DNA from: Chrysochromulina tobinii
Lineage: Eukaryota
Assembly (NCBI GenBank): GCA_001275005.1
Contig: JWZX01003291.1
Location: 1 to 38,792, forward strand
Length of the DNA stretch: 38,792 nt
Reading direction: 5' to 3'
In this document: positions 5,236 to 38,792 of the stretch, one piece after another
How the letters are laid out: each line of letters starts with the position of its first letter
Numbering within the stretch: the stretch's first letter is position 1
Notes under the pieces: generated by a model
The model's database searches: none
The model's input: only the letters and a program-made list of their open reading frames with translations
What the model was told of the DNA's origin: nothing
Translations under genes and position numbers: made by a program

Positions 5236-5611
5236 ACACACCACAAGACACACAACCCCGAACCCAAGCCCGAACCTGTACGTCAGCAGCGCCAGCGCGA
5301 CGACCGAAGCCGCGGCCGACTCAACAGCCGCAGGCCCGGAGCCGACCGCTCCCCGCGGCCGACTCCGCGGTACCGTGGTCCGTGCTGCGCTCCCGCGGTA
5401 CCTTGCGAACAGTGTTCCCGACCCGCGCTCGGGCATCTCTCCTACCGCCCCCCGCGCGCCCATTAGCGGCGACCACCACGGTCCACGCGGCACGGCGGCA
5501 CCGGCGCGCCACAGTGAGAGTGACACCAAGAGGCTGTAACAACGGCAACGATGTACCCCAAAGCCAAACACGAACATACTACCCTCGGGGCGTATGTCGG
5601 GCAGAAAACAA

Positions 5612-20313: not shown

Positions 20314-22903
20314 ATGCAGGCAGAGTCGCCTTCCTTGGTGGCCGAGGAGGTGATATTCGCAGAGCTCTCCTCGCCGACGCCTCTGCTGTCGCCCGGCACG
20401 CCACCCTTCGTCTTCTCGCGCCTCGACGACGAGGAGAAGGAGGACCTGCCCGACCCGGCTGATTACTTGGACGACGAAGACGAGGATGAGGACGGCGGAA
20501 TCGCGCAGTACGAATTGCGTCTGCACCACCCGGAGCGTTCGGGCGGCACGGTGCCGGTGCGTGCGGGTGGCGCGGGTGGCTCGGCCGCCGGCGCCTCGCG
20601 CGCCGCCTCGCTCGGCGTCGCCGTCGAGCGTGCGCACATGCAAGTTGACGAGCTGCGCCAGTTCAAGACGCTGTGTGACCGGCTGCTGCCCGGGCTGAGG
20701 TCGCAATCGCACTTGTACACGCTCATCCATTTGGACGATCGGACGTATACGCTCACGCTCTCTGAGTGGGGCGAGGTCATCGGCGGCGCCACCTTTCGCC
20801 TCGTGCAGGCGACGGACACGCCGTGGCTGCTGCTCGACGTGCTGCTCCTGGCCGTCGAGCAGCGGGCGGGCGTGTGCGGCCGTGGGCACGGCACGCGGCT
20901 GGTCAACTACCTCAAGGAGCTCGCCATGCGTGTCGCGCGCCGGCGCGGCCTCGCTGCCGCCCTCCTAGCCCAATCTGACTGGCAGGCGGAGGTACCCGGC
21001 GGAGGTGCCGCATGGCAATTCTGGACACGCCAACGCCTGCGGGCGACGCCGCAGGCGACGCTCCTGACGCGGGCGCTGTTCCAGTGGGACAAGGCGAACG
21101 AGGTGTACGCGCACGCCGCACCCATGCTCTGTTGGCTCTCTCCCTCGATGCCTCCACGTCACGTACTCTGTCCGGTACGGCTAAGCGCACGTGCTCAACA
21201 GCAGGTACGCGCATCTCCCCACCGAGCTCGCATCTCCCATCGAGCTCGCATCTCCCATCGAGCTCGGGCCGTCAAGAGTGCCTCTGATGGCCATCGATAC
21301 TCACTGATGGCCTCCCTCATCAGGCGAGCCTCGAGAAGCACTGATGACCTCTGATGAGCCCTGATGGCCTCCCTCATCAGGCGAGCCTCGAGAAGCACTG
21401 ATGACCTCTGATGAGCCCTGATTGCCTCCCTCATCAGGCGAGCCTCGAGAAGCACTGATGACCTCTGATGAGCCCTGATGGCCTCCCTCATCAGGCGAGC
21501 CTCGAGAAGCACTGATGACCTCTGATGAGCCCTGATGGCCTCCCTCATCAGGCGAGCCTCGAGAAGCCCGATGCCTTTCGGCACACGCGGCACACTCGGC
21601 GTGTGAATGTGAAGTTGCAGGGCGCGCTCACGCTGCTCCCGCCGATCGAGCCCATCGATGTCGAAGGCGAGCGCTGGGATGCGTCCGCGAACGTTGAGGT
21701 CCGCCCGCGCGACCGCGACCGAAGCCGCGGCGGCGGCGCCATCGCCCACGGCAGCGCCCACGGCAGCGCCCACGGCAGCGCCCACGGCAGCGCGCCACCG
21801 GCTCTGATGCGCCCGCTCGGGACGACGCTCGGGCCGCAAGCGGCACGTCGCCTCAAGTGTGAGGCGTGTGGGCAGCTGAGCAGCACCGACGACGTGTGTC
21901 GACCGGTCCAGCCGCAGCGCTCGCTTTCCGAGCCGGTGGCGTCGTCGTGGGCGCCGGTGGCCTCACCCGCATCGTCGCCGCGTCGTCATGGGCAGTCTAC
22001 CACAGCAGTGAGTTTCGTCAACGGATCGTCCTCCGGCGGGGCATCGCCGGTGCGCGCCTCGCGCCTGGCGCGCAGCAGCACTGTTGGCGCCGCCGCCGGC
22101 GCAGCCGAGCAGGTGCGCGAGTGCCGTTGCTGTGCACGGCAGCTCCACCAGATCTGCGATCACGATCGGCATAAGTTGTCAGACGCGGATGTGGAGCTGG
22201 CGCTGGCGGCACAGCGAGAGGCCGCCGCCGCGGCGGCGGCGCTCCACCTCGGCCTACCAGCCGCCGCCGACCCCGACCAGCAGTTTACGTGTGGTCGGTG
22301 CCTGGAGCTCATCGCGCGGGGAAGCGTACGTGACAGCACTGCCAGCGGCAGCGGCAGCGTCAGCGGCGGCGGCGGCAGCAGCAGCAGCAGAGAGGGTGTC
22401 GGCGGCGGCGGCGGCAAGGGCAAGCTTGCGGTCGACGGAATGCTCGCATTCCCAAATTTGGGAATGCTCGTGGTGGGCGAAGCGCGCGTGTGTCAGGCCG
22501 AGCTCCTCGTGCGCGTGTGTGCCGCGAGCGCAGCTTACCACGAACGCAAGCTCAAGGTCGATGCTTTGCTCGCCGTGCTCCGCCGCTATGCTCGCGTGCG
22601 CGTGCTCTTGGGCGGCGCGAGGCCCGTCGTCAAGGGCGAGTACCCCGCCATTCCCGTCAAGAGCACCGGGGGGACCGGCAGTGCTCGGGGCAGCGCTCGG
22701 GGCTCGGGTCGCGGCAGCGGGCGCGACGGTGGGCGCGGCGTCGGAGCAGGAAGAGGCATCAGCTCTCCCCATCCCCTCCCCTCCCCGTCTCCTGGCGCTA
22801 AGGGGCGGGCGGCGGCGCTGGCGCCAGTCAAGCAGCTCTCCGAAGAGGATGGAGGCGAGGGGCCTGCCTCGAGTCGCAAGCGTTCTGCAGAGAGCACATC
22901 GCT

Positions 22904-25091: not shown

Positions 25092-25497
25092 TCACTGCTG
25101 CATGGGCCGCGCGCCTGCGGCGGTCGGCAGGAGGCCGGCAAGCGTAGTTGGCGGCGGCCCTGAGCTCTCAGAAGTAGCCAACTCCATCCGGAGCTGCCGG
25201 GTGAAGTTCTCATCCTCCTCGTCATCCTCCCACCCGTCCTGCCACATTGTGGGGTCCTCGACCTCCTCCGATATCTTGGACCAATCCTGCTGCTCAAATT
25301 CCTCGAAATCGTCGTCTTCCTGCGCGCGCGGGCGAACGAGGTGCGCACGGATTAGCCTCCGAGCCAGGCGGGCGGCGCTCTGACGCAGCTATTTCAGGGG
25401 GGCTGGGCCGGGGGTTTACCTCAAGCACGTCGACAATCTCCTCTGGCTTGCCCGAAGCAGCCGCCGGCGCGGCGGGCGCGGGAGCAGCAGACGACAT
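25092..25497 (-). CDS. SEM1: 26S proteasome lid / TREX-2 subunit SEM1/DSS1, 2 exons (25497-25420, 25319-25092), 101 aa
   Basis: Splicing out GT-AG intron 25419-25320 gives VLE/EDDDFEEFEQQDW...MWQDGWEDDEEDENFTRQLRMEL, the DSS1/SEM1 signature; not present as such in the ORF track. Confidence 0.9.
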
Positions 25498-25525: not shown

Positions 25526-25553
25526 AGTCAAGTCAAGTCAAGTCAAGTCAAGT
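25526..25553. repeat. (AGTCA)5 microsatellite at the host/retroelement junction
   Basis: AGTCA x5 plus AGT, directly before CAAAAATG (25560). Confidence 0.95.
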
Positions 25554-25559
25554 TCAAAA

Positions 25560-28500
25560 ATGGCGCCTTCGGCGCCGCCGCCTTTGGGGCGCACCACGGG
25601 CGCGAGATATCGGGTGGGCGCGCCGCGGCGCAAATGGCTGGGACTTGCAGCCCCGTTCTCGGGCATTATCCACATCCACTTCTTTTTCCAGGGCGCGACC
25701 TCCCAAGCTACCAACTTCGGGCATTTCCCTTTTCGTACAGTACAGTGCAATGCTGCATCCGGGCCCGTCGACAATCGGGGCGGTGTCGGTGCTGCGCGAG
25801 GGCTGGAATGGTCGCCGGGAACCCCATCTATCGGGGGCAACTGCCGGCGTTTCTTCACGCGCGCGCGTGGACCCCCTACCTCTTCTTTTACGCCCTTTTG
25901 GGCTAGACAAGGACCCGTCAGCTACTTCGAGCCGGTCTGGGGGGCCAAATTTCATGATCGGGGGCGCGCTGGTGGAGTGGCTCGATGGACGATGGTGACG
26001 GCTGCGGTGGGCAGTTCTTCGTTCTGCTCGAGGAGTGCGCGCTGTGCTCCAGCAACGACTCATGGTCTGGCAGTGGCACGGCTGCAGCAGGAGCTCCACT
26101 TCCTGACCAACAACGAGGCAAGGAACGCGACGGGCCGCGCGACGCGGCGGGGCTCATCGATGCTGAGCATGCCAGCCGCGCTGGAGGCCCAGGCGGGCGA
26201 TCAATCGCGCCGCGGAGCACTCGCGAGCCTTCTTACTATGACGAGTTTGACCCCCTTTCGGGTCAGACAAGAGATCGGTTTTTCTTTTTGGACCGACTTC
26301 AAGAAGATCGGCGATCGGGCGCTGCGCGCATGGATGGCGCAGCGCGACGAGCGATGCGGCTCGCTGTGCGGCACGGCGATCGCGGGCTGCCGACGACGGA
26401 ATGCGAGTGGCAGCGAGCCGCGGCGGCTGCCGCAGCAGCCGCGACGCTCGAAGAAGAGCTCGATGACGAGCGCGTGCGCTACTTTGAGGGCGATGCGGCC
26501 GACTCGGAGCGTGAGCGCGATGAGCACGGCGCGTATCTTGACGAGCTGCATCGAGCCGCGTGTCTGCGGCGCACTTCTGGGTCCTTCTTCAAGCATCAAG
26601 TCGGATCGGGGCACGCCGCCACGACTGCCGAAGGGCTGCGCGACGCTGCTGCCGCAGTTTATCAATGCCGTCGGTCTGGCTGCCACACGCTCGTCGACGC
26701 CGGCAGGGCGCGCGCAGCGGCCCGTAAACGACCGAACGGCTCCTTCTGCGAAGGCGACGGATGCGCCGGGCCGCGCTGCGCCACTCGCTGGAGACCCGAT
26801 CGATTCGTGCCGAGGCAATGTGCGATGGCGTACAATCTCTTTCATGGCAGGCGGCGCTTGGCTGATTGGCCCGCCCGTGTGGGCGGTGGCTCTGGCACGC
26901 GACGCTCCAGGGCTTCCGGCGCGCGAGCTGCGCTTCTGGCTCTCGCCTGGCTGCAAGAGCTCGGGCTCTGCAGTTTCGAAGGTCCTCCTACGTCCTCCTC
27001 CTCGGCGCCTTGACGCGCCGCTCGCGGGTGGGATGGGGGGATATCGGATCGGGTCCTCTGGTCGCGCTCCATGGCATGCCCCCGAGGGAAACCTCCGCGG
27101 GGCCTCTGTCGGAGGTCGGACTATGCGACTCATGGTTCGCCCTCACCACACCGCGGGGCCGCCTCTCTTGGCTGCCGCCACTGACCTTCCTCTTCTTCTC
27201 CATCGACACCTTGATGCGCCGCTCGCGGGTGGGATGGGGGGACATCGGATCGGGTCCTCTGGTCGCGCTCCATGGCATGCCCCCGAGGGAAACCTCCGCG
27301 GGGCCTCTGTCGGAGGCCGGACTATGCGACTCATGGTTCGCCCTCACCACACCGCGAGGCCGCCTCTCCTGGTTGCCTCCGCACTTCTCCTTTCTCTTCT
27401 TTTCCTGTTCGGCGCGGGGGTGGCAGCCTGTCGTCGTTCGGAGCCGGACGTCACCCCTGACGAGCTGCACAAGGAGCTCCGGAGCATTGCGCAACTGCTG
27501 CGCCTGCACCACGAGAAGCTCTTGCTCATGGCCAAAACGGCGGCCGCGCCTGGAGCTTTCCAGGCATCGCGCGACGCCATCAAGGTGCTCGGCGGCAGGG
27601 AGGCGAAGCTCATCGCGTTACTGGCTGCCATGCCGTCCACGCGCGAGGTCCATGAAATTCGTGCGAACGTCGTGCAGAATTTTTACGCCGATCGCGACAA
27701 GCTCTCGTCGGCGATCCACGACGAAGTGACGAAATGCAGGACGCTCGAGGCCGAGCGCAGGCAGCCGATCTCTCACATCGGCATCGCCATCATCTGCTTG
27801 TCGCATCTTGCCGGTCTCGTTGGCGTCGCATGGTCTGCGCCATCTCCTCCGTCCTCTTCTCCTGTTCTACCTTCTTCTTCTGCATACTCTTCTTCTTACT
27901 ATTATTCTTCTTCCTCCTCATCTTCCCCTTCTTCCTCGGCTTCTTTCTCCGATTCTACTCGTGCTGACCCTCCTTCTTCCGTCGCGCTCATTGCGCCTAC
28001 TCTCGCGGGTACTTTTGCGTACACTCTTCCCACACCGCCCTCATCGCCGCCGCCCTCGCCGCCTGGATCTTCTTCTTCTTCTTCATCTTGTTCTCTCACT
28101 TCTTCGCCGGCGCGCCGTGTACGTCGCGTGCGGTGGCCTTCAGGCTCGCCACCGCCATCGCCGCCTCCATCGCCGACGGGAGCCTCGGATTCCTCGGCGG
28201 CGCCTTCGCCTCCTCCTTCGAGGACATCTTCGCGGCCGTCTTCACCAAAGGCACTGACTGCGGCCTCGCCTGCGCGCGAAGCGGCTCACGCGCGACGGCT
28301 GTCCTTGCAACCTGCACGATACGTGCCAGCCGCCTTTGGACGGCGGAGTATTCTCGCGACGGCGGCCGCAGCGGCGCAAAGCAGCACGATCGTCACGAAC
28401 GGCGAGCCGCCTGCAACCTTCGTGGCGTCGGCAGTCTGGACTGGCGCCATCGATGGCAAGGTCTTCAAGCGCGGCGCCTTTGGCGTGGGCTACTATGACG

Positions 28501-31500
28501 ACGGGCCGATCGCTGCGTGTGGCGAAGCGATCGTTGGACAGCGCGTGGGAACGGCACTATCCTTCGGCGCGGTCTCGATCAGCATGCGACCGTGCCAACA
28601 GGACTGCGACTGCGCGCGGTGCATACCGCGGCACGCGGATGCCAGACGGGCGCGCTTTGCCGGAGAGGCGGCGCTTCCGCCGCCGCCCCTGCCGACGCAT
28701 CGCATTACGGTGGCTGGCGGCAACGTCAACAAGACTGACGTCGTCGAGAAGACGCTCGCCTTCGCAATCCGGCAGCTTGACGGTGCCGACAAGCTGACGA
28801 GGCCGCGCGATCTTCTCAACGCGGGGCTCTTGAAGGCGCTATCGGCCCTAGGTGTTCATGACGGCGCTCTCGACGATTACGACGCGCTGCTAGCGCTGTT
28901 TCATGAGCGACAGGCCGTCAATCGCGCCGCTGTCGGCTGCGCAGCGGCAGTGGTTGTGGCAGCGGCTGCTGCTACGTCACGTCAGGCTAACGGTGCTCAC
29001 AGCGCGGCTGCCGCCGCGAGCGAGCGGTCGCGCGATGATCCCGAGGTGGTGTCAGTTTCGGCCGTCGCGGGCCTGAAGCGCAAGGTGGCTGCGGCGGTGC
29101 GCACGCTCGGTGAGTGTACCGCGAGCAGTGCACGGGCTGCTGCCGTCGCGATCGGCGGGCTTCATGCTGGGTCGGCCTTCGACAAGGCTGCCCAAGAGCG
29201 CGACGCGGCGGCGGCGGTCGCGAGCATGGTGGCCGCTGCGGTGACGGCCGAGGACCGCACTCGAAGCGCAGCCGCAGCGCGGGTCGGGTCATCGCACGAG
29301 ACGCAAGCCGAGATCGGGATGCGCGTCTACTGCAAGCTCGAGCTGCTCGAAGGGCAGCTACCGCACGAGGCCTGGCGGCTGGCTGTCATCCGGGGCCTCT
29401 TCTTCGTTGGTGCAGGCGAGGTCGAGGCTTTCGTCGAGTTCATCGTCATCGGCGCTCGTTGGTCGCTCGACGACTATCCGTATGTTGCCGAATGGAGCGC
29501 TGACGCGCTCAAAACGGCTGCGGCGAGAGAGCGGGATCGGCCGGCGCTCAAACAGCACAACGTCACTCTCGGACGAATGCTCGCCTTTGTTGGGCTCAAG
29601 GCGGTCGTGCCGCCGCCCCGGCCCGCGCTTGGCGTTGCGCTTAACCGATTACCCAGCGACACTATCGCCGCGGTTGGCGCCACCGGCGATGCAGGAAATG
29701 CCGTAACGCTGATCGTCTACGACGGGCGCGCCGCGCGCGCGACCGCGCTGCATCGCGTCCTTCAGGCCTACGCGTACGCGGCGGCCGGTTTCGCCACAGC
29801 GTGCCTGCCGACCATGTGGGAATGGCGCACTGCCCTTTGCGGCTCTTGCTCAGCGGCGCAATGGCTCGTGGCGCATTTTTTGCACTCCATCGGCTGGTCT
29901 GACGTTGTCGACGGCCTGGCAGCCTCAGCGGCACTCGCACGTTTCAAACGTGTGCTGCCCTGGCAGATGATTGCCGACGCGCTCGCGGATCTTTGCGAGA
30001 CTGACGTGTGCGTTTCGGTGCAAGCGCCGATGACACTCGGGCAGATCATCGGGTGCACGGGCAAGGCGCTCGGCGATGAGCTGCTGCGCGAAGCGATGAA
30101 GCTGCCACTGCAGCTCGAGCAGCTGCGTTCCGATGGTACGATCTCTGCGGCCGTGCTCGACTGGTGGCTGCGTGACGCGGCCTCTTTCATCGTCAAGTCC
30201 AAGTACAAGTTCGCCGAGGTGCTCGCCGCGCGCGCGGCCAAGCAGCAGCCCGCTCTACCGCGGCTGCCTCCGGGCGCATGTTGGATGGCCAGACAGGCTA
30301 AGGCGTACAAGATGGAGGTGGCGCTCAGCGACGCCAAATTCCTGCTCGAGCGGCTGCGGCGTGAGGCCAAGACGAAGGCGGAGGGCATCGTGCCTACATC
30401 GGCTACGGCGCCGCGCGCAGTGATCGAGGTGCAGCGAAGGCGCGCTTGCCTCGTTTGGAACCCCGGCGGCGTGCACGTCATCGACGCGAGGGCCGATCGC
30501 CGAGTGGGCGACCGTGAGCGTGCTATGCAAGGCAAACGGAGGGCGAGCGGCGCAGGAGCGCAGGCCGACGTGCGCGATCGCGAGCTGGCTGCGGCGATCG
30601 AGCGCGAGGACGAGGAGGACGGAGGCGGCGACGTGGGGCGGGGTTCAGCGCTCCGCTTCAAGGGCTGTGACGCGCTCGAGGCGATCATTGACCAAGTGAA
30701 GTCCAAGGACGCGCACCTGCTCGTGTTGTCCGAGACGCACTTGCACGGCCGCGCGGTCGATGACGTGGCCGATTACCTCGGCACGCGACTGGGCTGGCAG
30801 GATCTCGCCAAGGGGCGCAGTGGCGGCGCGCCTGAATATGTGCCGTGCGTCGTGCAGGCGCCGGCGGCGCGCGGTGAATGGGCGGGCGTACTGGTCGCTT
30901 TCGATCCGACAGTCTTCAAAAAGCTTGACGTGCAGATAGTCGTACCTGGACGCGTGCTGCAGATCGAGTTCCGAATGGTCGACGACTCTACGAATTTGAC
31001 GCTTTTCGCATGCTACATGCCTCAAGCCAATCTCCCACGCGAAGTGCACGACAAGGCTTGGGGCAAGCTCGAGGAGGCGCTGCTCACAGTGTGCGGCGCG
31101 TACGTGATTGCGGGCGACTTGAACGCGGAGACGGCGACTCGGCTGCTGAAGGCGCACAAGATCAACCTGAGCAAGGGCGGCGTGGTGAAGAGGCCGGGCG
31201 AGACCTATTTGTTCAAGCTCATGCACGGCACAAGCTTCCTCGAATTTGATCAGCCCACGAGGGTCGGGCGCGAGGAGTACACGCACCTGCACGTGGTGAG
31301 CGCGGCCTCGAAGGACGCGGAGGGCAATCTCGTCGAGGCCGTCACGAGCAAGCACGTCATCGACCACGTTCTCGAGGGCGGCTGCGATGGACGCGTCGGA
31401 GGCGGCGAGACCTTCACGGTCAAGGTCGGATCGGAGCCAAACAAGCAGTATCACAGGGCGCTGGGCTTTGCGATCATTACGACCGACACCGAGGAGATTG

Positions 31501-34500
31501 TCACGAGCGCGAATCGCAAACCGAAGCTCAGCAAGATGCCGAGGGTGTCGAGCAAGCCCAAGACGATGAGCAAGACGGGCAGCGACAAGCGCGACGGGGC
31601 CAAGCTGAAGAAGCGCCTGGTCACGATGGCCAACGCGCTGCCGGATCGTTTTGAGGATGGCACGGGCGGGCTCGTCGACGATGCCGAGTTGGGCGTGGAC
31701 GACTCTGACCTCGAGGAGGTGTTAGAGGGCGACGGTGATGCTGACGAGCTCATTGGTTGGGACGCGTACAAGGAAAGGGCGGCGAGCGCGAGCGAGTCGG
31801 CCATGAAGGACTGGGTGGCGGGGCGCGAGGGCGCGTGCGCCGAGGCGATGCAGCAGCTCGTTGGCCAAGGGCGGCCCATTGACGAGCGCAGCAGAGCGCT
31901 GGCGCGCGACGAGGCGGCGGCGCGCTACGCGGCGACGAACGGCACGTGCGTCGAGCATCTGATGCAGGCGTGCATGCTTGTGGCGCGCGAAGTCATCGCG
32001 GCGCCGCAGGCGGCCAAAGGGCGCAAGCAGTCGGCCGGCGAAGTGTTGCGGCGGAAGCTGGACAAGTACCTCGCGATCGAGAAGGAGGTCGAGGATCTGA
32101 AGATCACCGACATCGTCTTCGGCTACTGCGGCAAGATCAAGGGTCGCTGGAGGACGCGTGAGAGCGCGCTGACGCCCGAGCTCAAGCAGTTTTTCCTCCG
32201 CGACGCAGCGCCGCACGCGCCAGGCGAACGCAAGGCGCGCGAGCTTGTGCTCATACGGAGACGCGTCGACGAGTGCGTCAGGGAGGTCGAAGAGCATCGG
32301 CTGACTACTCGCGTCGACTATGTCAATGAGCAACTCACGATCTTGGCTGCCAGAGAGCTGGGGTACGCGCGAGCCGCTGCTGAGGTGATTCGAGCTGAGC
32401 GACGTGGGCTGATGTCCTCCAAGGACAAGGGCCCGGGCGGGACGCTGGTAGCTCTCGAAGACGAGGCGACCGGGCTGCTGCTCACTGGCGTGGCCCGCGA
32501 TAAGGCCGTCGCCGCCAAGGTGCGCTCGGGCAACACGCCAAATCTCGTCTGTCTCGAATCGGCTGGTCACCTTATGGACCTGTGCCGTATCGAGCGCGGC
32601 GAGCGCAGAGGAGGCAGCACGGCGCAGGGCAGCGGCGCGGCGTTTCAGGTCGTCGAGGACGCCGAGTGCCGGCTGGGTCGGCAGCCGCGCATCGCCCGAA
32701 ACCGAGAGCGCGTTGAGGCCTGTGTGCGGCCGCCGGCTGGCGACTTCGTCGTCGTTGGGAACGCGAGGTTTCCTGACGAGGCGCACGACGGCAGGGTACG
32801 GTACGACGGCAGCAGGAAGGGCATTCTGGGCAGTCCATTTCGGATGGGTCTCGACGGGCGCGACGAGAACTTGCGAGATCTCTCGTGCGAGTGCTATCGA
32901 GAGTGGCTTGAGACGGGCGGTGATGCGTACGCGATCGCGGTGGCCAAGTGTTTCCCAATCGAGTGCGTCGCGCCGGGTCACGGGCGGATCTGCAGCGCCG
33001 ACATCGAGGCCGAGATCGAGTCGCTCGTCGAGATCGTCGTCGAGCTCGACAAGCGCCTCGTGCTCGAGTGCGGGTGCGCGCCGAAGCGGTGCCATCTCGC
33101 GTGCATCGCGGAAAAGTGCAACACGCTGATCCGTGCGAAGCGTGCCTTGAGATCCAAGCAGGCTGCCGATGCGCGCGATGCCGGCGGCGCGGCGGCTTGC
33201 GAGCAGTGTGGCGAGGGCGTCGTGCAGGAGGGCGGAGGCGCGGCCGATGCTGATGCGCTATTGGCGAAGGTCGTCGCTGATGCTGTCGCTCAAAAGGGCG
33301 ATGTGTCAGGCTTTGTCGAGGCGGGCACGGCGGCGCAGCATCACGTCACGCGTGACGAGGAGAGCAGCGGTCAGCGGGCCGACGAGGCGACGCACGAGGG
33401 ATCGCGTGGCGCTGGGCACGCCACGGAGGCCGATTCAGCAAGGGAGCGCGCTCGCGAGCGCGACGCGTGGCATGAGGAACTGCGCAGCGTCATCGGCGCC
33501 ACGGGTGCTTCTGACGGCGATAAGGCGTCTGCCTTCGACTATTGGACCGGCGAGTACCAGCTCGAGTTCAACGAGAGCGGCGACCGGTGCACCGACCAGC
33601 GAGCACGGGCGCTGCTGCAACGGCTGCTCACGCCCGAGCGCGTCCTCGAGTTGACCAAGCTGGTCAAAGAGAAGCTCGCCACCGGGTTGGACGAGTTCAA
33701 CTTGGTGCTCGTCAAGCAGGGCGGGCTTGAGCTCGCCAAGCTCTTCGCTGACGCGTGCGTGGAGGAGGTGGCGGTCTTTTCATTCCCGACGAGCTGGACT
33801 ACCTGGCACGCGACGTTGATCCCGAAGCCGGGCAAAGATCGTTGCAAGCTCAGCGGCTGGAGGGAGATTTGGATCCAGTCGCATCTGTGGAAGCTCGTGG
33901 TCGGCGCCATCCTGCCCGAGTGCGCTGAGGTTTTTGCGCGCACGCGACCATGGTGCAACGCCGGCTTCGAGGCCGGGCGAGGCTGTCCCGAGCAGTCGGC
34001 GGCACTGCGCGCGCGGCTTGAGCTGCACATGCGGCTGCGGCAGCCACTACACGTCTACTTTCAGGACTATTCCGTCTTTTTTCCGTCGATCTCGAGGCAG
34101 CTTGTCGCCTTCATCCTGCATGAGCTGGGCGTGAGCACAGTCTCGATGCAGATTCTTCGAGAAGTCCAAGATCAAGTGATGGGAGCGTTCAAGACGGCGG
34201 GCGGTCCCACTGAGCTGGCCCCGATGCTGAGAGGCGAGCCCATCGGCGGCGTCGAATCGCCGTTGTTCTCGCTGCCTGTGGCGGCGCTCGTACAGCGCGC
34301 ACTCGAGACCTACGTGCCGGGCAGCCCACTGCCGGATCGGCGCGAGCTGCGTGTCGCTGCGCTGCAGCTGTGGTATGCCGACGACGGCGCACTTGCTGAC
34401 GCCGTCGAGGGCATCATCCAGACGGCGGTGGACATCATGATCTTGCTGTCGGAGGAGATCCTGGGGCTCAAGGTCGGGCACGACACGGTCGAGGCGTCCA

Positions 34501-37500
34501 AGTCGGCGTCGCTGTCGTGGACATGGGACAAGTCGCGCAACGAGTTCGTGCGTGGCAACGGAAACAAGTTCAAGGTGCCGTTGGGTAGCTCACGAGAGGA
34601 CATCGAGCTCGCGCGTGCAATCACCTATCGATACCTGGGCATTGACTTCGACCCTGAGCTCGACGTGACCAAAGTGGAGGAGTCGTATCGCGCGCGGGCC
34701 AGCGCAATCATCACCATGATCAACAATCTTGGCGGCGGGTACTGCGACCAGCTCGCGCAGGCGGTGAATACGGTCGTACAGGGCGTTTTCATCTTCCCGG
34801 CGAGGACGATTCCTTTCACGGAGGTCGCGTCGAAGGCGCTCGACATCAAGGCGACTAAGCTGCTCTTCAACCACGGCAATCGCGCCAGGCACTCCAAGAT
34901 CGTGGGTGCTTACGTCGCAGGCAAGTATGGAGGCCTCGGGCTGCGACCGGGGCGGTCGACGATGGCGGCCGGGCTGCTCGACGAGATGGCGCGCGCCTGG
35001 GGTGGCCGACACGGCGAGCCCGCGCGTGCAGTTCGGCTCTCCTTGCAGACGGTCTTCGTGGCGAGCCTGGGCTGGGACGGGCCGTCGGCGGAGGCGCCGA
35101 CCGTCTTCGACTTCATCATCAACGAGCGATGGCTACCTTGTTTCAGGAGCGAGGTCCCGATGGAGGGCGTAGCGCTGCATATGGCACGGCTGGGACTGCG
35201 GTGGCGCGGCACGGGCGTTGACGAGTGCCGGCTGGACAAGCAACGCGCGATCGAGCGAGGAGTGTTGCCAGGTCGCAAAGTGCGCCTCATCGAGCTGCTC
35301 GGCGTGACGCCCTCGCTACGCCTGCACGGGCTGGGCATCAGCAGCCTCGATGAGCTACACGCTGGTGGCGGCGAGCTGCTCAGCGCTGAACGGATCGAGG
35401 TCATCTATGCGAGGCCCGGTTGGGCGTGGAGCGACGTGGACAGAGCGCATGTCCGACGGCTGCTGCGTGAAGTCGCCGGCAACGATCGCGCAAAGGTCGC
35501 GCTCGACGACTGGAGAGAGCACGGCGCGCCGATGGGAGGCGAGATCGCGCTTATTGAGCGGATCAACGTGGGGAGACGGAGTGCGCTGCGCATGTTCTCT
35601 CGTATCGTGGGGATTATGTGGTGCAAGGACGCAGAGGGCGGCCGGCCCGACGAGCGCTCCTATGAGGTGATCTTCTGCGGCGCTCGGCTGCGCGACGCAG
35701 TATGGCTCACCCGGGCGCAAGTGCTGGAGGGCGCGGCGAGGCGCGACGCCGCCACGACTGTGTGCAGCCCTGGCGAGCCCATCGAGATCGATGAGGTGAC
35801 CGCGTGGATGGACGAGGCTGACGCATCGAGGTGGGAGCCGAGCACTTTCAACCGCTTCCTGACGCGGCTTCGAGGGCCGCAAGGCGCGGCCGAGCTGCTC
35901 GCCAAGGCCAGTCGAGCGGCAGGGCTCAATCGCGACGCGGCGCAAGCTCGTGTCGAGCTCACTGACGTCCTGCTGCTGGACTACGCGGCGCTGAGAGCTA
36001 AAGGCGTGAGCGCCAAGGAGGTCAATCTTCGCGAGGATCGGATCGCTGATGAGGCGAGGAGGCACGAAGTCGAGGAGTACTCGACTGCGTGGACGATCAC
36101 GTGCACGGGCGCGCTGCGACAGGCTCACACAGTCGAGGAGCGTATGGGCGCCGTTCGGGCGATGCCCGTACCGACTTACGCCGACGGTGGCGCGGTGCCT
36201 GAGTCTGACGTGCAGGTCGCTTTCGACGGGGTGGCATGGAAGGCTGCCAAGGATAACGGCAGTCTTTGGAGCGGGTGGCGCGGTCCCAATCACAAGGTCG
36301 CTGAATTCGAACGCGCGCCCGCGGCGTTCGCGTCAGCTGTCACGCGCAGTTTCTCGCGAGCGTATGAGGCCGAACGTTCGCCAGAGGGCCTGACGTGCGT
36401 GAACGCGTACGGCGGGCTGCTGCAGATTCGTATTGCGCGCGATGAGGCTGCGCTCATCGCGAGCGATCTCAATCTGGCGCTGCTGCGCGAGATCGGCAAG
36501 ATCGAGATGGTCTGCAAGCAGCGCGGCCGGGGCGGCTTCAAGCTCGTGGCGGCTACTGATGGCGCTTACTGCAAGGCGAAGGCGCTCAGTGCGCGCGACG
36601 CGCTGCGGTACGAGCTGGCAAGCGATGCTGAGCGCGTGCAGCGCAAATTGCGAGCGCCTTACGAGCCGCCGCAGGTGGCTAGCGGCGTCTTTTACGGGCT
36701 GCAGGCTCCTGGGAGCGCCGTGCCGGTGGCTGAGGGCAGGCGGCTGCCGGCCGAGTTCGATAACAATCAGGCGGAGCTCGACGGCCTCATACTCGCGCTT
36801 CGTCGTCACGTGGCCTTGCTGACCGGCATCTCGGTCCACGAGGTCTTGCGGCGGCTGCTGCACGACTGCGAGTACGCCATCGGCCCGGCCGCGAGCGCTG
36901 ACGAGGGTGAGGACGAGCTTGATGCTATGTCGGCCCGCGATGGCGAGGCCGACACGAGCGGCCCGAGAGAGGCGCGCGATCTGCTCATCATTATCGACAG
37001 CGAGATCATCGCCAGCTTCTTTCAGCGGGCGTGGCGCAGGGGCGACATCAAGTGGCTGCGCGGCGAGACGTACGGCCTGCGCATGGAGGAGGCGATCCTG
37101 TTACGGATCTGGCTCAGGACGCTCGGCGCCGAGGTCCACACTCTACGGTTGAGCTCTCATTGCGGCTTCATCCCGAACGTCTGGGCTGACGCGATCGCCA
37201 ATGCCGCGCGGCTTTTGGACTGCGACGGCGAGCCGCCTCTCGTCGTGCGTCGCCCCTTGGCCTTTTTGTGTAAGGTCGGCGGCGACGGCAAGTCGTGGCG
37301 TGGACCGGGCGCGTCGCTACCGCGGAGCGCGTGCGGGATGGCGAGCTCATCAGCGGAGCTCGACGCGCGGACTTCTAAGGAGATTCGCGAGCTGAGCGAC
37401 ACTTGCGCGCTGCACAAGCTCGTCGAGAACGACGTCAAGGTGTTTCGCGCCTCACGGCAGGGTCGCGAGGCGCGCGACGAGATCGACGGGATCGTCTTTC

Positions 37501-38792
37501 TGCCCAGGTGCTCGCGGCACGCCCAACTCGGCGAGCAGCTTTTGGACAGCGACGCGAGCAAGCAGGCCAAGGGTCTTTTCGAGCAAGCGAGACACGAGCT
37601 GCGCAGCGTCGCCGACGGCGAGCTATCGGCTGAGCTCATCGAGGGACGGTTGTACGCTGCCCCGTTCTTTGACTACGTCGGGGTGGGGCTCGACGTGACC
37701 AAGGGCATGCAGATCTTCGACCGGCGCATTCAGACCCCGCTCTCTACGCAGAGGGGAGGCGGTTTCGGCGGGCCGCTCGAGCTCACGCGTGTGGGCATGC
37801 GGCACTTACTGCGCAACTTCACGCAGAGCGCGTTGCCCGAGCTGGGCGATGGCATCGACGACAGCGCGAGAGTCGCGGGCGAGACTCTGCCGCTGTGCAG
37901 GTGCCCGGTTTGTCGTCGGGAGTGCAGGTGCGACCTTTTTCATTTCTTCGAGTGCCCGCACGGGCTGAGCGAGGCAGCGAGGGTGGCTTGCTGCAGCGCG
38001 CTCGAGCAGCACGCGTCTATGATAGGTGCGCCGCGCGCCGGCGACGGCGAGGGCGAGGGCGACTTGCATTTGGAGCTGGCCTGGGCGAGGGTGGCCTTGC
38101 TTGCCGAGCGGCTGCCGGGTGAGCTTGGGCGGTACCGCAGGTATTTGGCCGCCAAGGCGCTCGCAGGCGCCTTTGCGTTGCCAGCGGCGTCTTCAGTGAA
38201 GGAGGCTGTCATGGACAGCCTTCGCGCCGGCGTGAGCGTGAGCACGGCAGAGGCCGATGAGGCTGACGACGGCGACGGCGACAACGGCGATACGCAGGAC
38301 GAGTGGGAGGAGGCGCGCCCGCCGGGCGAGTTCGACTACGAGCAGTGCGCAGGGGCGCGGCGCGATCTGCTCAAATGGTACGTCGGGAAGGCTATCGCGC
38401 TCAACACGGTTATCATCGACCACTTGCGCATCGAGTACAGCGCGTGGGTCGAATCGTTGCGGCGTGGGCATGCAGGGCTGCGTGGCGCATACGGAAGCGA
38501 CTACATGAGTCATTTCCTTGGCGGCAGGGAGCGAGTCTGCGATGAGCAGCTGCGTGGCACCTTCTTCCCGACCGACGGCAGCGTGGCCGTGCCAATGAGC
38601 CTCGCCGACTTCAAGGTTGGGCACAAGAGCGACGAGATGCGGCCGGGCCGCTTCGTGCGCATCGTGGGCGGCGAGACGATCGCGTGCACGCACGGCACCG
38701 CAGCGAGCAGGTACGAGGCGCAGGCTAGCAGGCGCGCGAGCGCCAAGGCGGCGGCGGATCTCGCAAGGGAGGAGGGCAGCTTCAGGTACGCG
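25560..38792 (+). CDS. Retrotransposon polyprotein, at least 4411 aa from the first ATG (at least 3823 aa from ATG 27324), truncated by the window
   Basis: Manual translation of frame +3 has no stop from 25356 to the window end, and the ORF track lists no frame +3 ORF here, which is consistent. True start uncertain (25560, 27033, 27123 or 27324). Confidence 0.88.
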   Translation, partial: MAPSAPPPLGRTTGARYRVGAPRRKWLGLAAPFSGIIHIHFFFQGATSQATNFGHFPFRTVQCNAASGPVDNRGGVGAARGLEWSPGTPSIGGNCRRFFTRARGPPTSSFTPFWARQGPVSYFEPVWGAKFHDRGRAGGVARWTMVTAAVGSSSFCSRSARCAPATTHGLAVARLQQELHFLTNNEARNATGRATRRGSSMLSMPAALEAQAGDQSRRGALASLLTMTSLTPFRVRQEIGFSFWTDFKKIGDRALRAWMAQRDERCGSLCGTAIAGCRRRNASGSEPRRLPQQPRRSKKSSMTSACATLRAMRPTRSVSAMSTARILTSCIEPRVCGALLGPSSSIKSDRGTPPRLPKGCATLLPQFINAVGLAATRSSTPAGRAQRPVNDRTAPSAKATDAPGRAAPLAGDPIDSCRGNVRWRTISFMAGGAWLIGPPVWAVALARDAPGLPARELRFWLSPGCKSSGSAVSKVLLRPPPRRLDAPLAGGMGGYRIGSSGRAPWHAPEGNLRGASVGGRTMRLMVRPHHTAGPPLLAAATDLPLLLHRHLDAPLAGGMGGHRIGSSGRAPWHAPEGNLRGASVGGRTMRLMVRPHHTARPPLLVASALLLSLLFLFGAGVAACRRSEPDVTPDELHKELRSIAQLLRLHHEKLLLMAKTAAAPGAFQASRDAIKVLGGREAKLIALLAAMPSTREVHEIRANVVQNFYADRDKLSSAIHDEVTKCRTLEAERRQPISHIGIAIICLSHLAGLVGVAWSAPSPPSSSPVLPSSSAYSSSYYYSSSSSSSPSSSASFSDSTRADPPSSVALIAPTLAGTFAYTLPTPPSSPPPSPPGSSSSSSSCSLTSSPARRVRRVRWPSGSPPPSPPPSPTGASDSSAAPSPPPSRTSSRPSSPKALTAASPAREAAHARRLSLQPARYVPAAFGRRSILATAAAAAQSSTIVTNGEPPATFVASAVWTGAIDGKVFKRGAFGVGYYDDGPIAACGEAIVGQRVGTALSFGAVSISMRPCQQDCDCARCIPRHADARRARFAGEAALPPPPLPTHRITVAGGNVNKTDVVEKTLAFAIRQLDGADKLTRPRDLLNAGLLKALSALGVHDGALDDYDALLALFHERQAVNRAAVGCAAAVVVAAAAATSRQANGAHSAAAAASERSRDDPEVVSVSAVAGLKRKVAAAVRTLGECTASSARAAAVAIGGLHAGSAFDKAAQERDAAAAVASMVAAAVTAEDRTRSAAAARVGSSHETQAEIGMRVYCKLELLEGQLPHEAWRLAVIRGLFFVGAGEVEAFVEFIVIGARWSLDDYPYVAEWSADALKTAAARERDRPALKQHNVTLGRMLAFVGLKAVVPPPRPALGVALNRLPSDTIAAVGATGDAGNAVTLIVYDGRAARATALHRVLQAYAYAAAGFATACLPTMWEWRTALCGSCSAAQWLVAHFLHSIGWSDVVDGLAASAALARFKRVLPWQMIADALADLCETDVCVSVQAPMTLGQIIGCTGKALGDELLREAMKLPLQLEQLRSDGTISAAVLDWWLRDAASFIVKSKYKFAEVLAARAAKQQPALPRLPPGACWMARQAKAYKMEVALSDAKFLLERLRREAKTKAEGIVPTSATAPRAVIEVQRRRACLVWNPGGVHVIDARADRRVGDRERAMQGKRRASGAGAQADVRDRELAAAIEREDEEDGGGDVGRGSALRFKGCDALEAIIDQVKSKDAHLLVLSETHLHGRAVDDVADYLGTRLGWQDLAKGRSGGAPEYVPCVVQAPAARGEWAGVLVAFDPTVFKKLDVQIVVPGRVLQIEFRMVDDSTNLTLFACYMPQANLPREVHDKAWGKLEEALLTVCGAYVIAGDLNAETATRLLKAHKINLSKGGVVKRPGETYLFKLMHGTSFLEFDQPTRVGREEYTHLHVVSAASKDAEGNLVEAVTSKHVIDHVLEGGCDGRVGGGETFTVKVGSEPNKQYHRALGFAIITTDTEEIVTSANRKPKLSKMPRVSSKPKTMSKTGSDKRDGAKLKKRLVTMANALPDRFEDGTGGLVDDAELGVDDSDLEEVLEGDGDADELIGWDAYKERAASASESAMKDWVAGREGACAEAMQQLVGQGRPIDERSRALARDEAAARYAATNGTCVEHLMQACMLVAREVIAAPQAAKGRKQSAGEVLRRKLDKYLAIEKEVEDLKITDIVFGYCGKIKGRWRTRESALTPELKQFFLRDAAPHAPGERKARELVLIRRRVDECVREVEEHRLTTRVDYVNEQLTILAARELGYARAAAEVIRAERRGLMSSKDKGPGGTLVALEDEATGLLLTGVARDKAVAAKVRSGNTPNLVCLESAGHLMDLCRIERGERRGGSTAQGSGAAFQVVEDAECRLGRQPRIARNRERVEACVRPPAGDFVVVGNARFPDEAHDGRVRYDGSRKGILGSPFRMGLDGRDENLRDLSCECYREWLETGGDAYAIAVAKCFPIECVAPGHGRICSADIEAEIESLVEIVVELDKRLVLECGCAPKRCHLACIAEKCNTLIRAKRALRSKQAADARDAGGAAACEQCGEGVVQEGGGAADADALLAKVVADAVAQKGDVSGFVEAGTAAQHHVTRDEESSGQRADEATHEGSRGAGHATEADSARERARERDAWHEELRSVIGATGASDGDKASAFDYWTGEYQLEFNESGDRCTDQRARALLQRLLTPERVLELTKLVKEKLATGLDEFNLVLVKQGGLELAKLFADACVEEVAVFSFPTSWTTWHATLIPKPGKDRCKLSGWREIWIQSHLWKLVVGAILPECAEVFARTRPWCNAGFEAGRGCPEQSAALRARLELHMRLRQPLHVYFQDYSVFFPSISRQLVAFILHELGVSTVSMQILREVQDQVMGAFKTAGGPTELAPMLRGEPIGGVESPLFSLPVAALVQRALETYVPGSPLPDRRELRVAALQLWYADDGALADAVEGIIQTAVDIMILLSEEILGLKVGHDTVEASKSASLSWTWDKSRNEFVRGNGNKFKVPLGSSREDIELARAITYRYLGIDFDPELDVTKVEESYRARASAIITMINNLGGGYCDQLAQAVNTVVQGVFIFPARTIPFTEVASKALDIKATKLLFNHGNRARHSKIVGAYVAGKYGGLGLRPGRSTMAAGLLDEMARAWGGRHGEPARAVRLSLQTVFVASLGWDGPSAEAPTVFDFIINERWLPCFRSEVPMEGVALHMARLGLRWRGTGVDECRLDKQRAIERGVLPGRKVRLIELLGVTPSLRLHGLGISSLDELHAGGGELLSAERIEVIYARPGWAWSDVDRAHVRRLLREVAGNDRAKVALDDWREHGAPMGGEIALIERINVGRRSALRMFSRIVGIMWCKDAEGGRPDERSYEVIFCGARLRDAVWLTRAQVLEGAARRDAATTVCSPGEPIEIDEVTAWMDEADASRWEPSTFNRFLTRLRGPQGAAELLAKASRAAGLNRDAAQARVELTDVLLLDYAALRAKGVSAKEVNLREDRIADEARRHEVEEYSTAWTITCTGALRQAHTVEERMGAVRAMPVPTYADGGAVPESDVQVAFDGVAWKAAKDNGSLWSGWRGPNHKVAEFERAPAAFASAVTRSFSRAYEAERSPEGLTCVNAYGGLLQIRIARDEAALIASDLNLALLREIGKIEMVCKQRGRGGFKLVAATDGAYCKAKALSARDALRYELASDAERVQRKLRAPYEPPQVASGVFYGLQAPGSAVPVAEGRRLPAEFDNNQAELDGLILALRRHVALLTGISVHEVLRRLLHDCEYAIGPAASADEGEDELDAMSARDGEADTSGPREARDLLIIIDSEIIASFFQRAWRRGDIKWLRGETYGLRMEEAILLRIWLRTLGAEVHTLRLSSHCGFIPNVWADAIANAARLLDCDGEPPLVVRRPLAFLCKVGGDGKSWRGPGASLPRSACGMASSSAELDARTSKEIRELSDTCALHKLVENDVKVFRASRQGREARDEIDGIVFLPRCSRHAQLGEQLLDSDASKQAKGLFEQARHELRSVADGELSAELIEGRLYAAPFFDYVGVGLDVTKGMQIFDRRIQTPLSTQRGGGFGGPLELTRVGMRHLLRNFTQSALPELGDGIDDSARVAGETLPLCRCPVCRRECRCDLFHFFECPHGLSEAARVACCSALEQHASMIGAPRAGDGEGEGDLHLELAWARVALLAERLPGELGRYRRYLAAKALAGAFALPAASSVKEAVMDSLRAGVSVSTAEADEADDGDGDNGDTQDEWEEARPPGEFDYEQCAGARRDLLKWYVGKAIALNTVIIDHLRIEYSAWVESLRRGHAGLRGAYGSDYMSHFLGGRERVCDEQLRGTFFPTDGSVAVPMSLADFKVGHKSDEMRPGRFVRIVGGETIACTHGTAASRYEAQASRRASAKAAADLAREEGSFRYA
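25985..27013 (+). CDS. Candidate ORF1 of the element (342 aa, acidic middle, Cys-rich C-terminal part), overlapping frame +3
   Basis: Frame +2 ORF with protein-like acidic stretches; its TGA lies at the start of the first 201-bp repeat; no gag knuckle or RRM recognised. Confidence 0.4.
   Translation: MDDGDGCGGQFFVLLEECALCSSNDSWSGSGTAAAGAPLPDQQRGKERDGPRDAAGLIDAEHASRAGGPGGRSIAPRSTREPSYYDEFDPLSGQTRDRFFFLDRLQEDRRSGAARMDGAARRAMRLAVRHGDRGLPTTECEWQRAAAAAAAAATLEEELDDERVRYFEGDAADSERERDEHGAYLDELHRAACLRRTSGSFFKHQVGSGHAATTAEGLRDAAAAVYQCRRSGCHTLVDAGRARAAARKRPNGSFCEGDGCAGPRCATRWRPDRFVPRQCAMAYNLFHGRRRLADWPARVGGGSGTRRSRASGARAALLALAWLQELGLCSFEGPPTSSSSAP
27008..27377 (+). repeat. Two near-identical 169-bp cores at 201-bp spacing (27008-27176, 27209-27377)
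   Basis: Only six differences, all transitions; the period is 67 codons and preserves frame. Confidence 0.95.
30444..31475 (+). other. APE/EEP endonuclease domain
   Basis: LVWNPGG (30456), LVLSETH (E at 30732), AGVLVA, CYMP, IAGDLNA (31113), VIDHVL, QYH (H at 31452). Confidence 0.9.
32742..33125 (+). other. DUF4326-like domain inside the polyprotein
   Basis: VVVGN...ILGSPFRMG...DENLRDLSCECYREWL...IESL...LVLECGCAPKRCHLACIA matches the recalled DUF4326 pattern LGNPF...R...Y..WL...LxCxCxPxxCH. Confidence 0.75.
33600..34945 (+). other. Non-LTR type reverse transcriptase domain
   Basis: LATGLDE (domain 0), FPTSW, LIPKPGKD, NAGFEAGRGC (2a), QDYSVFFPSI, GEPIGGVESPLF, WYADD (34374), GLKV, YRYLG, GGLG. 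Confidence 0.93.
36540..37205 (+). other. Ribonuclease H1-type domain
   Basis: ATDGA (D 36558), SGVFYG, NNQAEL (E 36774), IIDSE (D 36996), SSHCG..PNVWAD (H 37158, D 37188): the complete DEDHD set. Confidence 0.9.
37902..37955 (+). other. C-terminal CCHC zinc knuckle
   Basis: CPVCRRECRCDLFHFFEC (C-x2-C-x9-H-x3-C), at the position typical for LINE ORF2. Confidence 0.75.

What the first reader, a model, noticed from the sequence alone, without database searches (positions are those of the whole stretch)
25560..38792. Hidden giant non-LTR retrotransposon: one intact ORF over 13 kb with a mosaic domain architecture
Seen: frame +3 is stop-free for at least 4411 codons and is missing from the ORF track. 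The order is 1000-1600 aa unknown N-terminus, APE, DUF4326-like, RT, chromo-like, RNase H, CCHC, then at least 280 further aa. Known: typical LINE ORF2 proteins are about 1200-1300 aa, and even the large algal Dualen/RandI ORFs are about 3000 aa. Inference: an intact, possibly active member of an undescribed clade of cargo-carrying giant LINEs in haptophytes.
Basis: partly seen in the sequence, partly recalled or inferred. Interest (0 to 1): 0.9.

Follow-up and report, generated by a model that had tools for sequence, protein, structure and literature searches.

The report
Giant LINE with mirror-repeat ends
This is a real, likely recently active 14.8-kb jumping gene of a haptophyte alga with one 4,761-codon reading frame, and many of its copies, even cut-short ones, start with a mirror image of their own tail repeat, which likely means that its copying enzyme primes on the tail at both cut ends of the target, a step so far reported only as a rare accident of primate L1.

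Summary
The ORF is real: frame +3 is open from 25356 to the window end, and a 99.99% identical contig (L001) completes it at 4,761 codons within a ~14.8-kb element. APE, DUF4326-like, non-LTR RT, chromo-like, RNase H and CCHC domains lie in the reported order. About three near-identical copies and several diverged subfamilies exist; the host is Chrysochromulina tobinii or a near-identical strain. Size is not a record: cryptophyte Dualen-1_GCr encodes 5,287 aa. The first ~600 codons show little amino-acid constraint; they contain a separate selected ORF in frame +2. The RT falls in a long-stemmed clade of unnamed giant ORFs whose sister group is unresolved; no restriction-like endonuclease follows CCHC, so it fails the Dualen definition. 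The new finding is at the ends: 5 of 8 distinct 5' junctions carry 5-8 repeats that are the reverse complement of the copy's own 3' tail, in three matching unit variants, on full-length and truncated copies, and inside the target-site duplication where both ends are seen. Most likely both target 3'-OH ends are primed on the RNA tail. That structure is known in L1 only as a rarity (39 loci).

The parts
25526..25553 (+). 5' cap: about five CAAGT units, the reverse complement of the family's (ACTTG)n 3' tail; marks the element's 5' end
   Evidence: TRF; tail at the end of L001 and caps on L003, L013; single-copy flank contig ends at 25552
25560..38792 (+). giant ORF, frame +3, 4,411 codons in the window, 4,761 in the complete copy L001
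   Evidence: pN/pS 0.15-0.68 in all 14 blocks from aa 1250 on against L008
25985..27013 (+). nested ORF1-like gene, frame +2, 342 aa, Cys/His-rich C-terminal half, no family match
   Evidence: dN/dS 0.21 in frame +2 against 1.2 in frame +3 over the same bases versus L013; 28 of 46 changes at its third codon positions; no Pfam hit below E 0.19
27008..27377 (+). 201-bp tandem duplication (1.8 copies), in frame, also in L013
27354..27848 (+). two hydrophobic segments (aa 599-623, 739-763) around a constrained helical-looking stretch
   Evidence: hydropathy; dN/dS 0.18 for 27528-27855; role untested
29307..29579 (+). predicted beta-barrel, Tudor/chromobarrel-like (weak)
   Evidence: conserved to P0006 at E 1e-10; AlphaFold pLDDT about 60-70 here; Foldseek top rows mostly Tudor, chromobarrel and BAH folds but none better than E 0.2
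30441..31484 (+). APE-type endonuclease
   Evidence: Pfam PF03372 E 5.9e-5; motif positions N1634, E1725, D1853/N1855, D1935, H1965 (catalytic assignments recalled)
32814..33113 (+). DUF4326 domain (rhodanese-phosphatase superfamily, predicted)
   Evidence: Pfam PF14216 E 3.2e-6; function proposal from PMC9503650, one passage
33627..34649 (+). divergent non-LTR reverse transcriptase, YADD at aa 2939
   Evidence: pN/pS 0.15
35562..35789 (+). chromo-like domain, divergent
36525..37229 (+). RNase H with two insertions; D-E-D-H-D positions kept
   Evidence: alignment with Pfam RNase_H-positive P0057, P0058, P0158, P0177
37902..37955 (+). CCHC zinc knuckle
37956..38792 (+). post-CCHC region, no RLE motif; continues in L001 as a 350-aa acidic tail, a ~500-nt 3' UTR and the (ACTTG)n tail
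25176..25497 (-). neighbouring host DSS1/SEM1 gene, head to head; the element sits about 30 nt upstream of its likely start codon
   Evidence: Pfam PF05160 E 1.6e-11 for 25176-25319; first exon and start codon read by eye, untested

Best explanation
This is a 14.8-kb APE-type LINE retrotransposon with one 4,761-codon reading frame, likely active recently, whose copies often begin with the reverse complement of their own tail repeat, likely because the reverse transcriptase primes on the RNA tail at both nicked target strands. Shown: intact ORF, domain order, several copies at different sites, a short-repeat 3' tail, a 9-bp target-site duplication (TSD) enclosing cap, element and tail, and caps on truncated copies. 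Inferred steps: (1) the RNA, ending in (ACUUG)n, is translated into the small frame +2 protein and, less often, the polyprotein; (2) APE makes staggered nicks about 9-12 nt apart; (3) the bottom-strand 3'-OH primes first-strand cDNA on the tail; (4) the top-strand 3'-OH also primes on tail repeats of the same or a second RNA and copies them only, probably with slippage, giving 5-8 CAAGT units; (5) this extended top strand is joined to wherever the cDNA ended, full-length or not, and second-strand synthesis finishes the insertion; (6) RNase H clears the hybrid. The Tudor-like and chromo-like domains would bind chromatin or nucleic acid, and DUF4326 would remove terminal phosphates; both roles are guesses from fold and family.
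For: Caps at 5 of 8 distinct 5' junctions among 21 loci: window/L002 (5 units), L003 (6), L013 (8), L005/L006 (5), L007 (7). Cap unit tracks tail unit in three variants: CAAGT/ACTTG, CAAGTT/AACTTG, AAGTT/AACTT. In L006 the TSD CGGCTCCTA lies outside both cap and tail, so the cap was not in the target; the same junction is in L005. L007's cap joins a point inside the APE domain (L008 position 3172), so it is added to a truncated cDNA; the 11-12 nt before it match the flank right after L010's tail. Read laying adds a loose end TCAAGTCA before L001 14712 and a joint 25550 to 33608. All 16 arrays of these units in the 21 loci lie at element ends, none in about 76 kb of flank. No inverted 3' UTR lies upstream of any cap. 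Per-contig depth is 104-115 on the element against 36-38 on its flanks in run X12, and 130-152 against 46 in X6; L001 and L003 differ at 2 of 13,899 sites but the window and L003 have different 5' flanks. Twin and dual priming on the poly(A) tail is the published model for the same structure in L1 (PMC2837659).
Against: Three of 8 junctions lack a cap: L010/L011/L012/L016 (junction at a TAA next to what looks like another transposon end), L017/L019, and L020/L021 (a short fragment between direct repeats); I read them as later breaks but did not prove it. Only one locus holds both ends of one copy (L005/L006); the L007/L010 pair is inferred across two contigs, and L007's own 3' end has a different tail and flank, so it must be a mosaic assembly for the pairing to hold. 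Whether L006 is truncated rests on its starting in an open frame without ATG; no longer copy of that subfamily was found. No TSD is known for the window's own copy. All sequences are short-read assemblies, most probably of the same culture, and runs X6 and X12 may be the window's source. Caps were not tested in the distant clade members. Several consensus residues (recalled) are changed: Q to I in RT motif B and the D before the last APE His. RNA evidence is weak: contigs only.
Confidence: 0.68

Rival explanations
1. Same LINE, but the cap is added by reiterative, telomerase-like copying of one or two tail units, or by a fold-back of the RNA that brings the tail next to the stalled cDNA end, and not by an independent second priming event on the target.
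For: Caps (5-8 units) are longer than the genomic tails seen (2-4 units) and never run into the unique 3' UTR in 5 of 5 cases; one cap has an irregular unit (L007), as slippage would give.
Against: It still needs the top-strand 3'-OH to be extended on the tail, so sequence alone does not separate it from the best reading; L001's tail is cut by the contig end, so true tail lengths are uncertain.
Confidence: 0.17
2. The cap is an inherited part of the 5' end of full-length RNAs, and the few capped truncated copies arose by later internal deletion or by rare L1-like accidents; insertion is ordinary TPRT.
For: Three of the five capped junctions are full-length 5' ends of one family with the same downstream sequence; internal deletions and inversions do occur in these copies (L013, L006); three junctions have no cap.
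Against: In L007 the cap abuts internal APE sequence with no 5' UTR remnant; cap length differs among near-identical copies; the cap unit changed together with the tail unit in three variants.
Confidence: 0.1
3. The element targets pre-existing microsatellites, or the caps are assembly joins through a high-copy repeat.
For: The repeat is abundant elsewhere in the runs (bin depth in the thousands); microsatellite-targeting LINEs exist (recalled).
Against: Targeting would leave the same-sense repeat on both sides, but unique flank follows the tail and matches the flank before the cap; arrays are only 25-40 nt; the window and L006 junctions each recur in a second assembly (L002, L005).
Confidence: 0.04
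4. The ORF is a domesticated single-copy gene or an assembly chimera.
For: None beyond the unusual length and the missing Pfam RT hit.
Against: About threefold depth, different flanks on near-identical copies, diverged subfamilies with open frames of 2,666-3,933 codons, TSD and tails.
Confidence: 0.01

Closest known systems
Dualen/RandI LINEs, especially cryptophyte Dualen-1_GCr (5,287 aa; PMC5029228, passages seen)
   Same: One very long ORF with APE, RT, RNase H and CCHC plus accessory domains, in an alga; a sister subfamily (L006) carries a stretch with papain-like C...H motifs whose weak Atlas look-alikes are all cysteine-protease-type families (scores 0.78-0.81).
   Different: No restriction-like endonuclease motif after CCHC; no SET or C48 hit; DUF4326 and chromo-like domains instead; short 9-12-bp TSDs against the very long duplications reported for Chlamydomonas Dualen-4b (median 900 bp; PMC9977147, passages); RT not shown to group with the one Dualen-like protein in hand (P0169).
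L1 insertions with 5' poly(T): twin/dual priming on the tail (Meyer et al. 2010, PMC2837659; parts 1-3 of 6 and passages read)
   Same: [quoted passage not shown]
   Different: In L1 it is rare (39 verified loci in the primate genomes screened, none full-length, 26 of them without a 3' tail); here it is at 5 of 8 junctions, on full-length and truncated copies, is a 5-6-nt repeat, and changes with the tail unit.
Ambal and Proto1 clades (APE, RT, RNase H; recalled, named only in search listings)
   Same: APE + RT + RNase H without RLE; Ambal elements are recalled as over 10 kb.
   Different: Recalled as two separate ORFs with a normal-sized pol; no reference sequence was available, so relationship untested.
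Human L1 ORF2p and R2 proteins (PDB)
   Same: Best structural-database sequence matches of the RT profile (E 3e-28 and 2e-26; group II intron RT only 2.5e-3).
   Different: About four times longer; RT only 22-30% identical to conventional LINEs and on a long stem.

Membership tests
non-LTR retrotransposon (LINE) | non-LTR-type reverse transcriptase | tested here: met
   profile hits L1 and R2 far above group II intron RT; YADD at 2939
non-LTR retrotransposon (LINE) | endonuclease (APE or RLE) | tested here: met
   PF03372 E 5.9e-5, below Pfam cut-off; motifs
non-LTR retrotransposon (LINE) | 3' simple-repeat tail, variable TSD, 5' truncation, no LTRs | tested here: met
   five distinct 3' ends with tails, 9-bp TSD in L006, truncated L007
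non-LTR retrotransposon (LINE) | transposition through an RNA shown experimentally | not testable with these tools
   RNA runs held only as contigs
Dualen/RandI | both APE and RLE endonucleases in one ORF | tested here: not met
   no RPD..(D/E) motif after CCHC in L001, L008 or P0161, while P0169 has one; by motif and alignment only, the fold model of this region failed
Dualen/RandI | single very long ORF with RNase H and CCHC | tested here: met
Dualen/RandI | cysteine protease domain | tested here: inconclusive
   no hit in the window ORF; weak leads in sister subfamily L006
Dualen/RandI | RT groups with Dualen RTs | tested here: inconclusive
   only one unnamed Dualen-like row (P0169, long branch); union not rejected, p-AU 0.43, and not shown
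L1/Tx1, I, RTE, Jockey crown groups | RT nests among conventional APE-type RTs | tested here: not met
   clade separate from all 61, 39 and 23 other rows, SH-aLRT 99-100; those rows are unnamed and labelled by domain content only
Ambal / Proto1 | RT groups with Ambal or Proto1 references | not testable with these tools
   no named reference retrieved

The most novel reading that the evidence does not exclude
A deep, unnamed lineage of giant protist LINEs integrates symmetrically: its RT routinely caps both nicked target strands with its own tail repeat, telomerase-like, and uses that cap to join the 5' end, so every insertion is bounded by inverted microsatellites; it also swaps enzyme and chromatin-reader cargo (DUF4326 phosphatase, chromo, Tudor, protease) between positions, and hides ORF1 inside the 5' extension of the polyprotein frame.
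Probability: 0.4. Interest if true: 0.88.

Novelty: new variant of a known kind. Interest (0 to 1): 0.72.

Why it matters
How LINEs prime the second strand and join their 5' end is poorly understood (stated in the abstract start of PMC6895275, listing). A family that leaves a readable, tail-dependent signature at most 5' junctions makes that step testable from genome sequence and in a simple tail-swap assay, in a culturable alga with a public genome. A programmable way to seal the 5' junction would also matter for RT-based gene insertion. The RT escapes Pfam RVT_1, so such elements and their inverted-repeat-bounded fragments are likely missed or mistaken for MITEs in algal genome annotation (inference).

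Tried and rejected
No whole genome is held, and the loci's records are not searchable, so copies could not be counted genome-wide. Pfam found no RT, RNase H or chromodomain on the window's own segments. A single-sequence AlphaFold model of aa 3601-4455 was useless (mean pLDDT 35.8); the five-sequence model of aa 1231-1647 was usable only for the barrel (mean 43.2), and Foldseek gave nothing under E 0.2; the VIA-align libraries gave no answer. The Atlas gave no usable hit for aa 1031-1667. The careful IQ-TREE search did not finish; all trees are quick trees, the last two without the mixture model; one search used 71 of 99 rows (short conventional RTs and near-duplicates dropped) and one search used 39. 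Viral contigs held no relative. Prokaryote genomes gave two loci (L022, L023) whose best matches are conventional LINE RTs, dropped. DUF4326 in P0057 is only weakly supported (no Pfam hit; iE 0.014 in a 178-protein set). A DEK-C-like look at aa 215-265 (by eye) got no Pfam support. Expression: RNA run X14 holds short contigs with 1-20 differences and X13 mostly contigs 7-14% different; contigs cannot show strand or level, so transcription is not shown. The 3' end folds only modestly better than shuffles (z -1.78). Earlier findings: none alike by sequence or place; word hits concern other elements. Rejected: record size, microsatellite targeting, domestication, chimera.

Full report
Observation. 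Frame +3 runs without a stop from 25356 to the end of the window, 4,479 codons, 4,411 from the ATG at 25560; chance from composition is about 1e-50. A scan of metagenome contigs with the RT returned 21 loci. L001 is 99.99% identical to the window from 25526 on and completes the ORF at 4,761 codons, followed by about 500 nt of 3' UTR and an (ACTTG)n tail at the contig end, so the element is about 14.8 kb. The one difference between window and L001 (35011, H/R at aa 3151) is read as the L001 letter in the laid contigs, so it is probably an error in the window.

Domains. APE: Pfam PF03372 E 5.9e-5, motifs from aa 1631 to 1965. DUF4326: E 3.2e-6; one paper proposes that this rhodanese-phosphatase clade removes terminal phosphates from ADP-ribose derivatives in phages and giant viruses (PMC9503650, one passage). 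RT: missed by RVT_1, weak alone against R2 and L1 (E 0.002-0.06), strong as a 17-row profile (L1 E 3e-28, R2 E 2e-26, group II intron 2.5e-3). Chromo-like: the window segment alone hits nothing; the aligned segment of P0161 hits Chromo_shadow at E 0.003, and a six-row profile ranks chromodomain proteins at the top of 38 PDB hits, best E 8e-4; I chose those segments by eye, so this is moderate support. RNase H: all five acidic/His positions align with relatives that hit Pfam RNase_H. CCHC at aa 4115. After it there is no RLE motif, whereas P0169, an unnamed 3,348-aa APE-RT-RNase H-CCHC protein, has one. A barrel at aa 1254-1337 resembles Tudor/chromobarrel folds, weakly. Against L008, pN/pS is 0.15 in RT and 0.29-0.68 in the other 13 blocks, so the cargo is under purifying selection.

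The 5' 600 codons. A second ORF in frame +2 (25985-27013, 342 aa) lies inside the giant frame. Against L013 (84% identical DNA), dN/dS over these bases is 0.21 in frame +2 and 1.2 in frame +3; only the first 70 codons lean to frame +3 (0.18 against 0.30, nine changes). Yet frame +3 stays open here in both subfamilies, with a chance of about 0.002 judged from off-frame stops in the main ORF, and all eight indels between them keep the frame once two neighbouring ones are summed. I infer an ORF1-like gene nested in an open leader of the polyprotein frame; the true start of the polyprotein (aa 1, 589 or 657) is not known. The protein may thus be about 4,100 to 4,761 aa.

Copies and host. Contigs identical to the element have about three times the depth of those on its flanks (104-115 against 36-38 in X12; 130-152 against 46 in X6), and the flank contig stops at 25552; these runs may be the window's source. 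L003 differs from L001 at 2 of 13,899 sites yet has another 5' flank than the window; L013 has a third. Subfamilies at about 73% DNA identity hold open frames of up to 3,933 codons as well as broken copies. Depth rises steeply over the last 800 nt, which suggests many short 3' copies. A Chrysochromulina tobinii gene model (P0003) is 99.7-99.8% identical to L010 over two stretches of 885 and 650 aa, and a C. parva model is related, so the host is this haptophyte or a near-identical strain.

The ends. The window's element begins with about five CAAGT units, the reverse complement of the L001 tail. Of 21 loci, six start inside the element; the rest show eight distinct 5' junctions. Five have such a cap: window/L002 (L001 starts within it), L003, L013, L005/L006, L007, with 5, 6, 8, 5 and 7 units. 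The unit follows the tail: CAAGT with ACTTG, CAAGTT with AACTTG, AAGTT with AACTT. In L006 the 9-bp duplication CGGCTCCTA encloses cap, element and tail, and the cap is followed by an open frame with no start codon. In L007 the cap joins a site inside the APE domain, and the 11-12 nt before it equal the flank after L010's (AACTT)n tail; I infer one insertion split over two assemblies, with L007 a mosaic. Read laying gives two more hints of capped truncated copies. All 16 arrays of these units in the loci lie at element ends, none in about 76 kb of flank, and no inverted 3' UTR precedes a cap. Against: three junctions have no cap (L010 group, L017/L019, L020/L021), and only one copy is seen whole.

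Mechanism. A cap that lies inside the TSD, sits on truncated copies and changes with the tail must be made during insertion by copying the tail onto the top-strand 3' end. The simplest model is priming of both target nicks on the RNA tail, followed by joining to the cDNA end (0.68). Reiterative or fold-back copying (0.17) and an inherited cap with later deletions (0.10) remain; targeting of old microsatellites or misassembly is unlikely (0.04). Steps from APE nicking onward are inferred from established LINE biology; none was observed.

Relatives. A full search gave 765 proteins at E up to 0.001, the best 150 listed. In a quick tree of 90 RT domains the element lies in a 29-row group split from 61 conventional RTs with SH-aLRT 100; a 71-row tree gave 32 rows, support 99. 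The group holds unnamed ORFs of 2,111-3,688 aa with the same core. Cargo moves: DUF4326 lies between APE and RT here and in P0006, is degenerate there in P0161, and follows CCHC in P0046 (E 3.7e-4); P0057 has a DnaJ hit; P0163/P0164 end in a chromodomain-like motif (read by eye). The sister group is unresolved: union with the Dualen-like P0169 or with the RLE group is not rejected (p-AU 0.43 each), and union with the APE group has support 60. No named clade reference was in any tree.

Comparison with what is known. Dualen-1_GCr encodes 5,287 aa with SET, C48 peptidase, APE, RT, RNase H, CCHC and RLE (PMC5029228, passages; 12 of 17 supplements searched, one figure label found), so size alone is not new; the element works like a Dualen without RLE but fails that family's defining test. 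Inverted tails at 5' ends are described for primate L1 as 39 loci, none full-length, explained by twin or dual priming (PMC2837659, parts 1-3 of 6 and passages). Nine literature searches (listings only unless cited above) showed no paper on this family or on routine inverted caps; Repbase, most subscription journals and the original Dualen paper were out of reach, so a prior Repbase entry is possible.

Verdict. Real, recently mobile giant LINE; new variant of a known kind; interest 0.72, carried by the cap signature and the deep, cargo-shuffling clade more than by length.

Noticed in passing
window 25176-25497 (-): Host DSS1/SEM1 gene; the element is inserted about 30 nt upstream of its likely start, head to head, and could alter its transcription.
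   Followed up: partly
window 4881-5260; L010 7586-7630: Nested, near-perfect inverted repeats (arms 30-56 nt, one 74-nt palindrome) whose arms recur in the L010 flank: a probable small repeated element.
   Followed up: partly
window 21304-21567: 57-bp tandem repeat (4.6 copies, 99% matches) with very high summed depth and many loose ends in DNA and RNA runs: a dispersed high-copy repeat.
   Followed up: no
L006 3576-4175: Sister subfamily has an N-terminal stretch absent from the window's family, with papain-like Cys and His motifs; weak Atlas look-alikes are protease or deubiquitinase folds.
   Followed up: partly
L006 7862-8584; L013 10951-11681: Two copies each carry an internal inversion of about 720-730 bp; L013 also lacks about 780 bp of the RT region.
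   Followed up: no
L006 versus L008: These subfamilies are 97-99% identical in their 5' parts and 88% in their 3' parts: likely recombinant origin or template switching.
   Followed up: no
L010 1-312: The L010 copy is cut at a TAA next to a G-rich end that looks like a DNA-transposon terminus (label recalled).
   Followed up: partly
L020 7600-8200: A 150-200-nt RT fragment sits between two direct repeats of at least 130 nt: a captured piece inside another repeat.
   Followed up: no
L001 14321-14465: The 3' UTR begins with a 56-bp direct repeat (96%); two short blocks of the UTR are conserved across subfamilies, likely RT recognition signals.
   Followed up: partly
protein P0169: Unnamed 3,348-aa protein with APE, RT, RNase H-like, CCHC and RLE motifs: a likely Dualen from a metagenome.
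   Followed up: partly
window 28410-28515: Short conserved-looking motif (F...W.G...G.VFK.G..G.GYY.D) in the ORF's N-terminal part, recalled from other algal proteins; no Pfam hit.
   Followed up: partly
window 1-24800: Ordinary host genes: PH domain, protein kinase, UDP-galactopyranose mutase, Rad51-like, MFS transporter, EF-hand protein.
   Followed up: no
L022, L023: Two contigs of a bacterial genome bin hold LINE-type RTs whose best matches are conventional eukaryote-type LINEs: probably contamination of the bin.
   Followed up: partly
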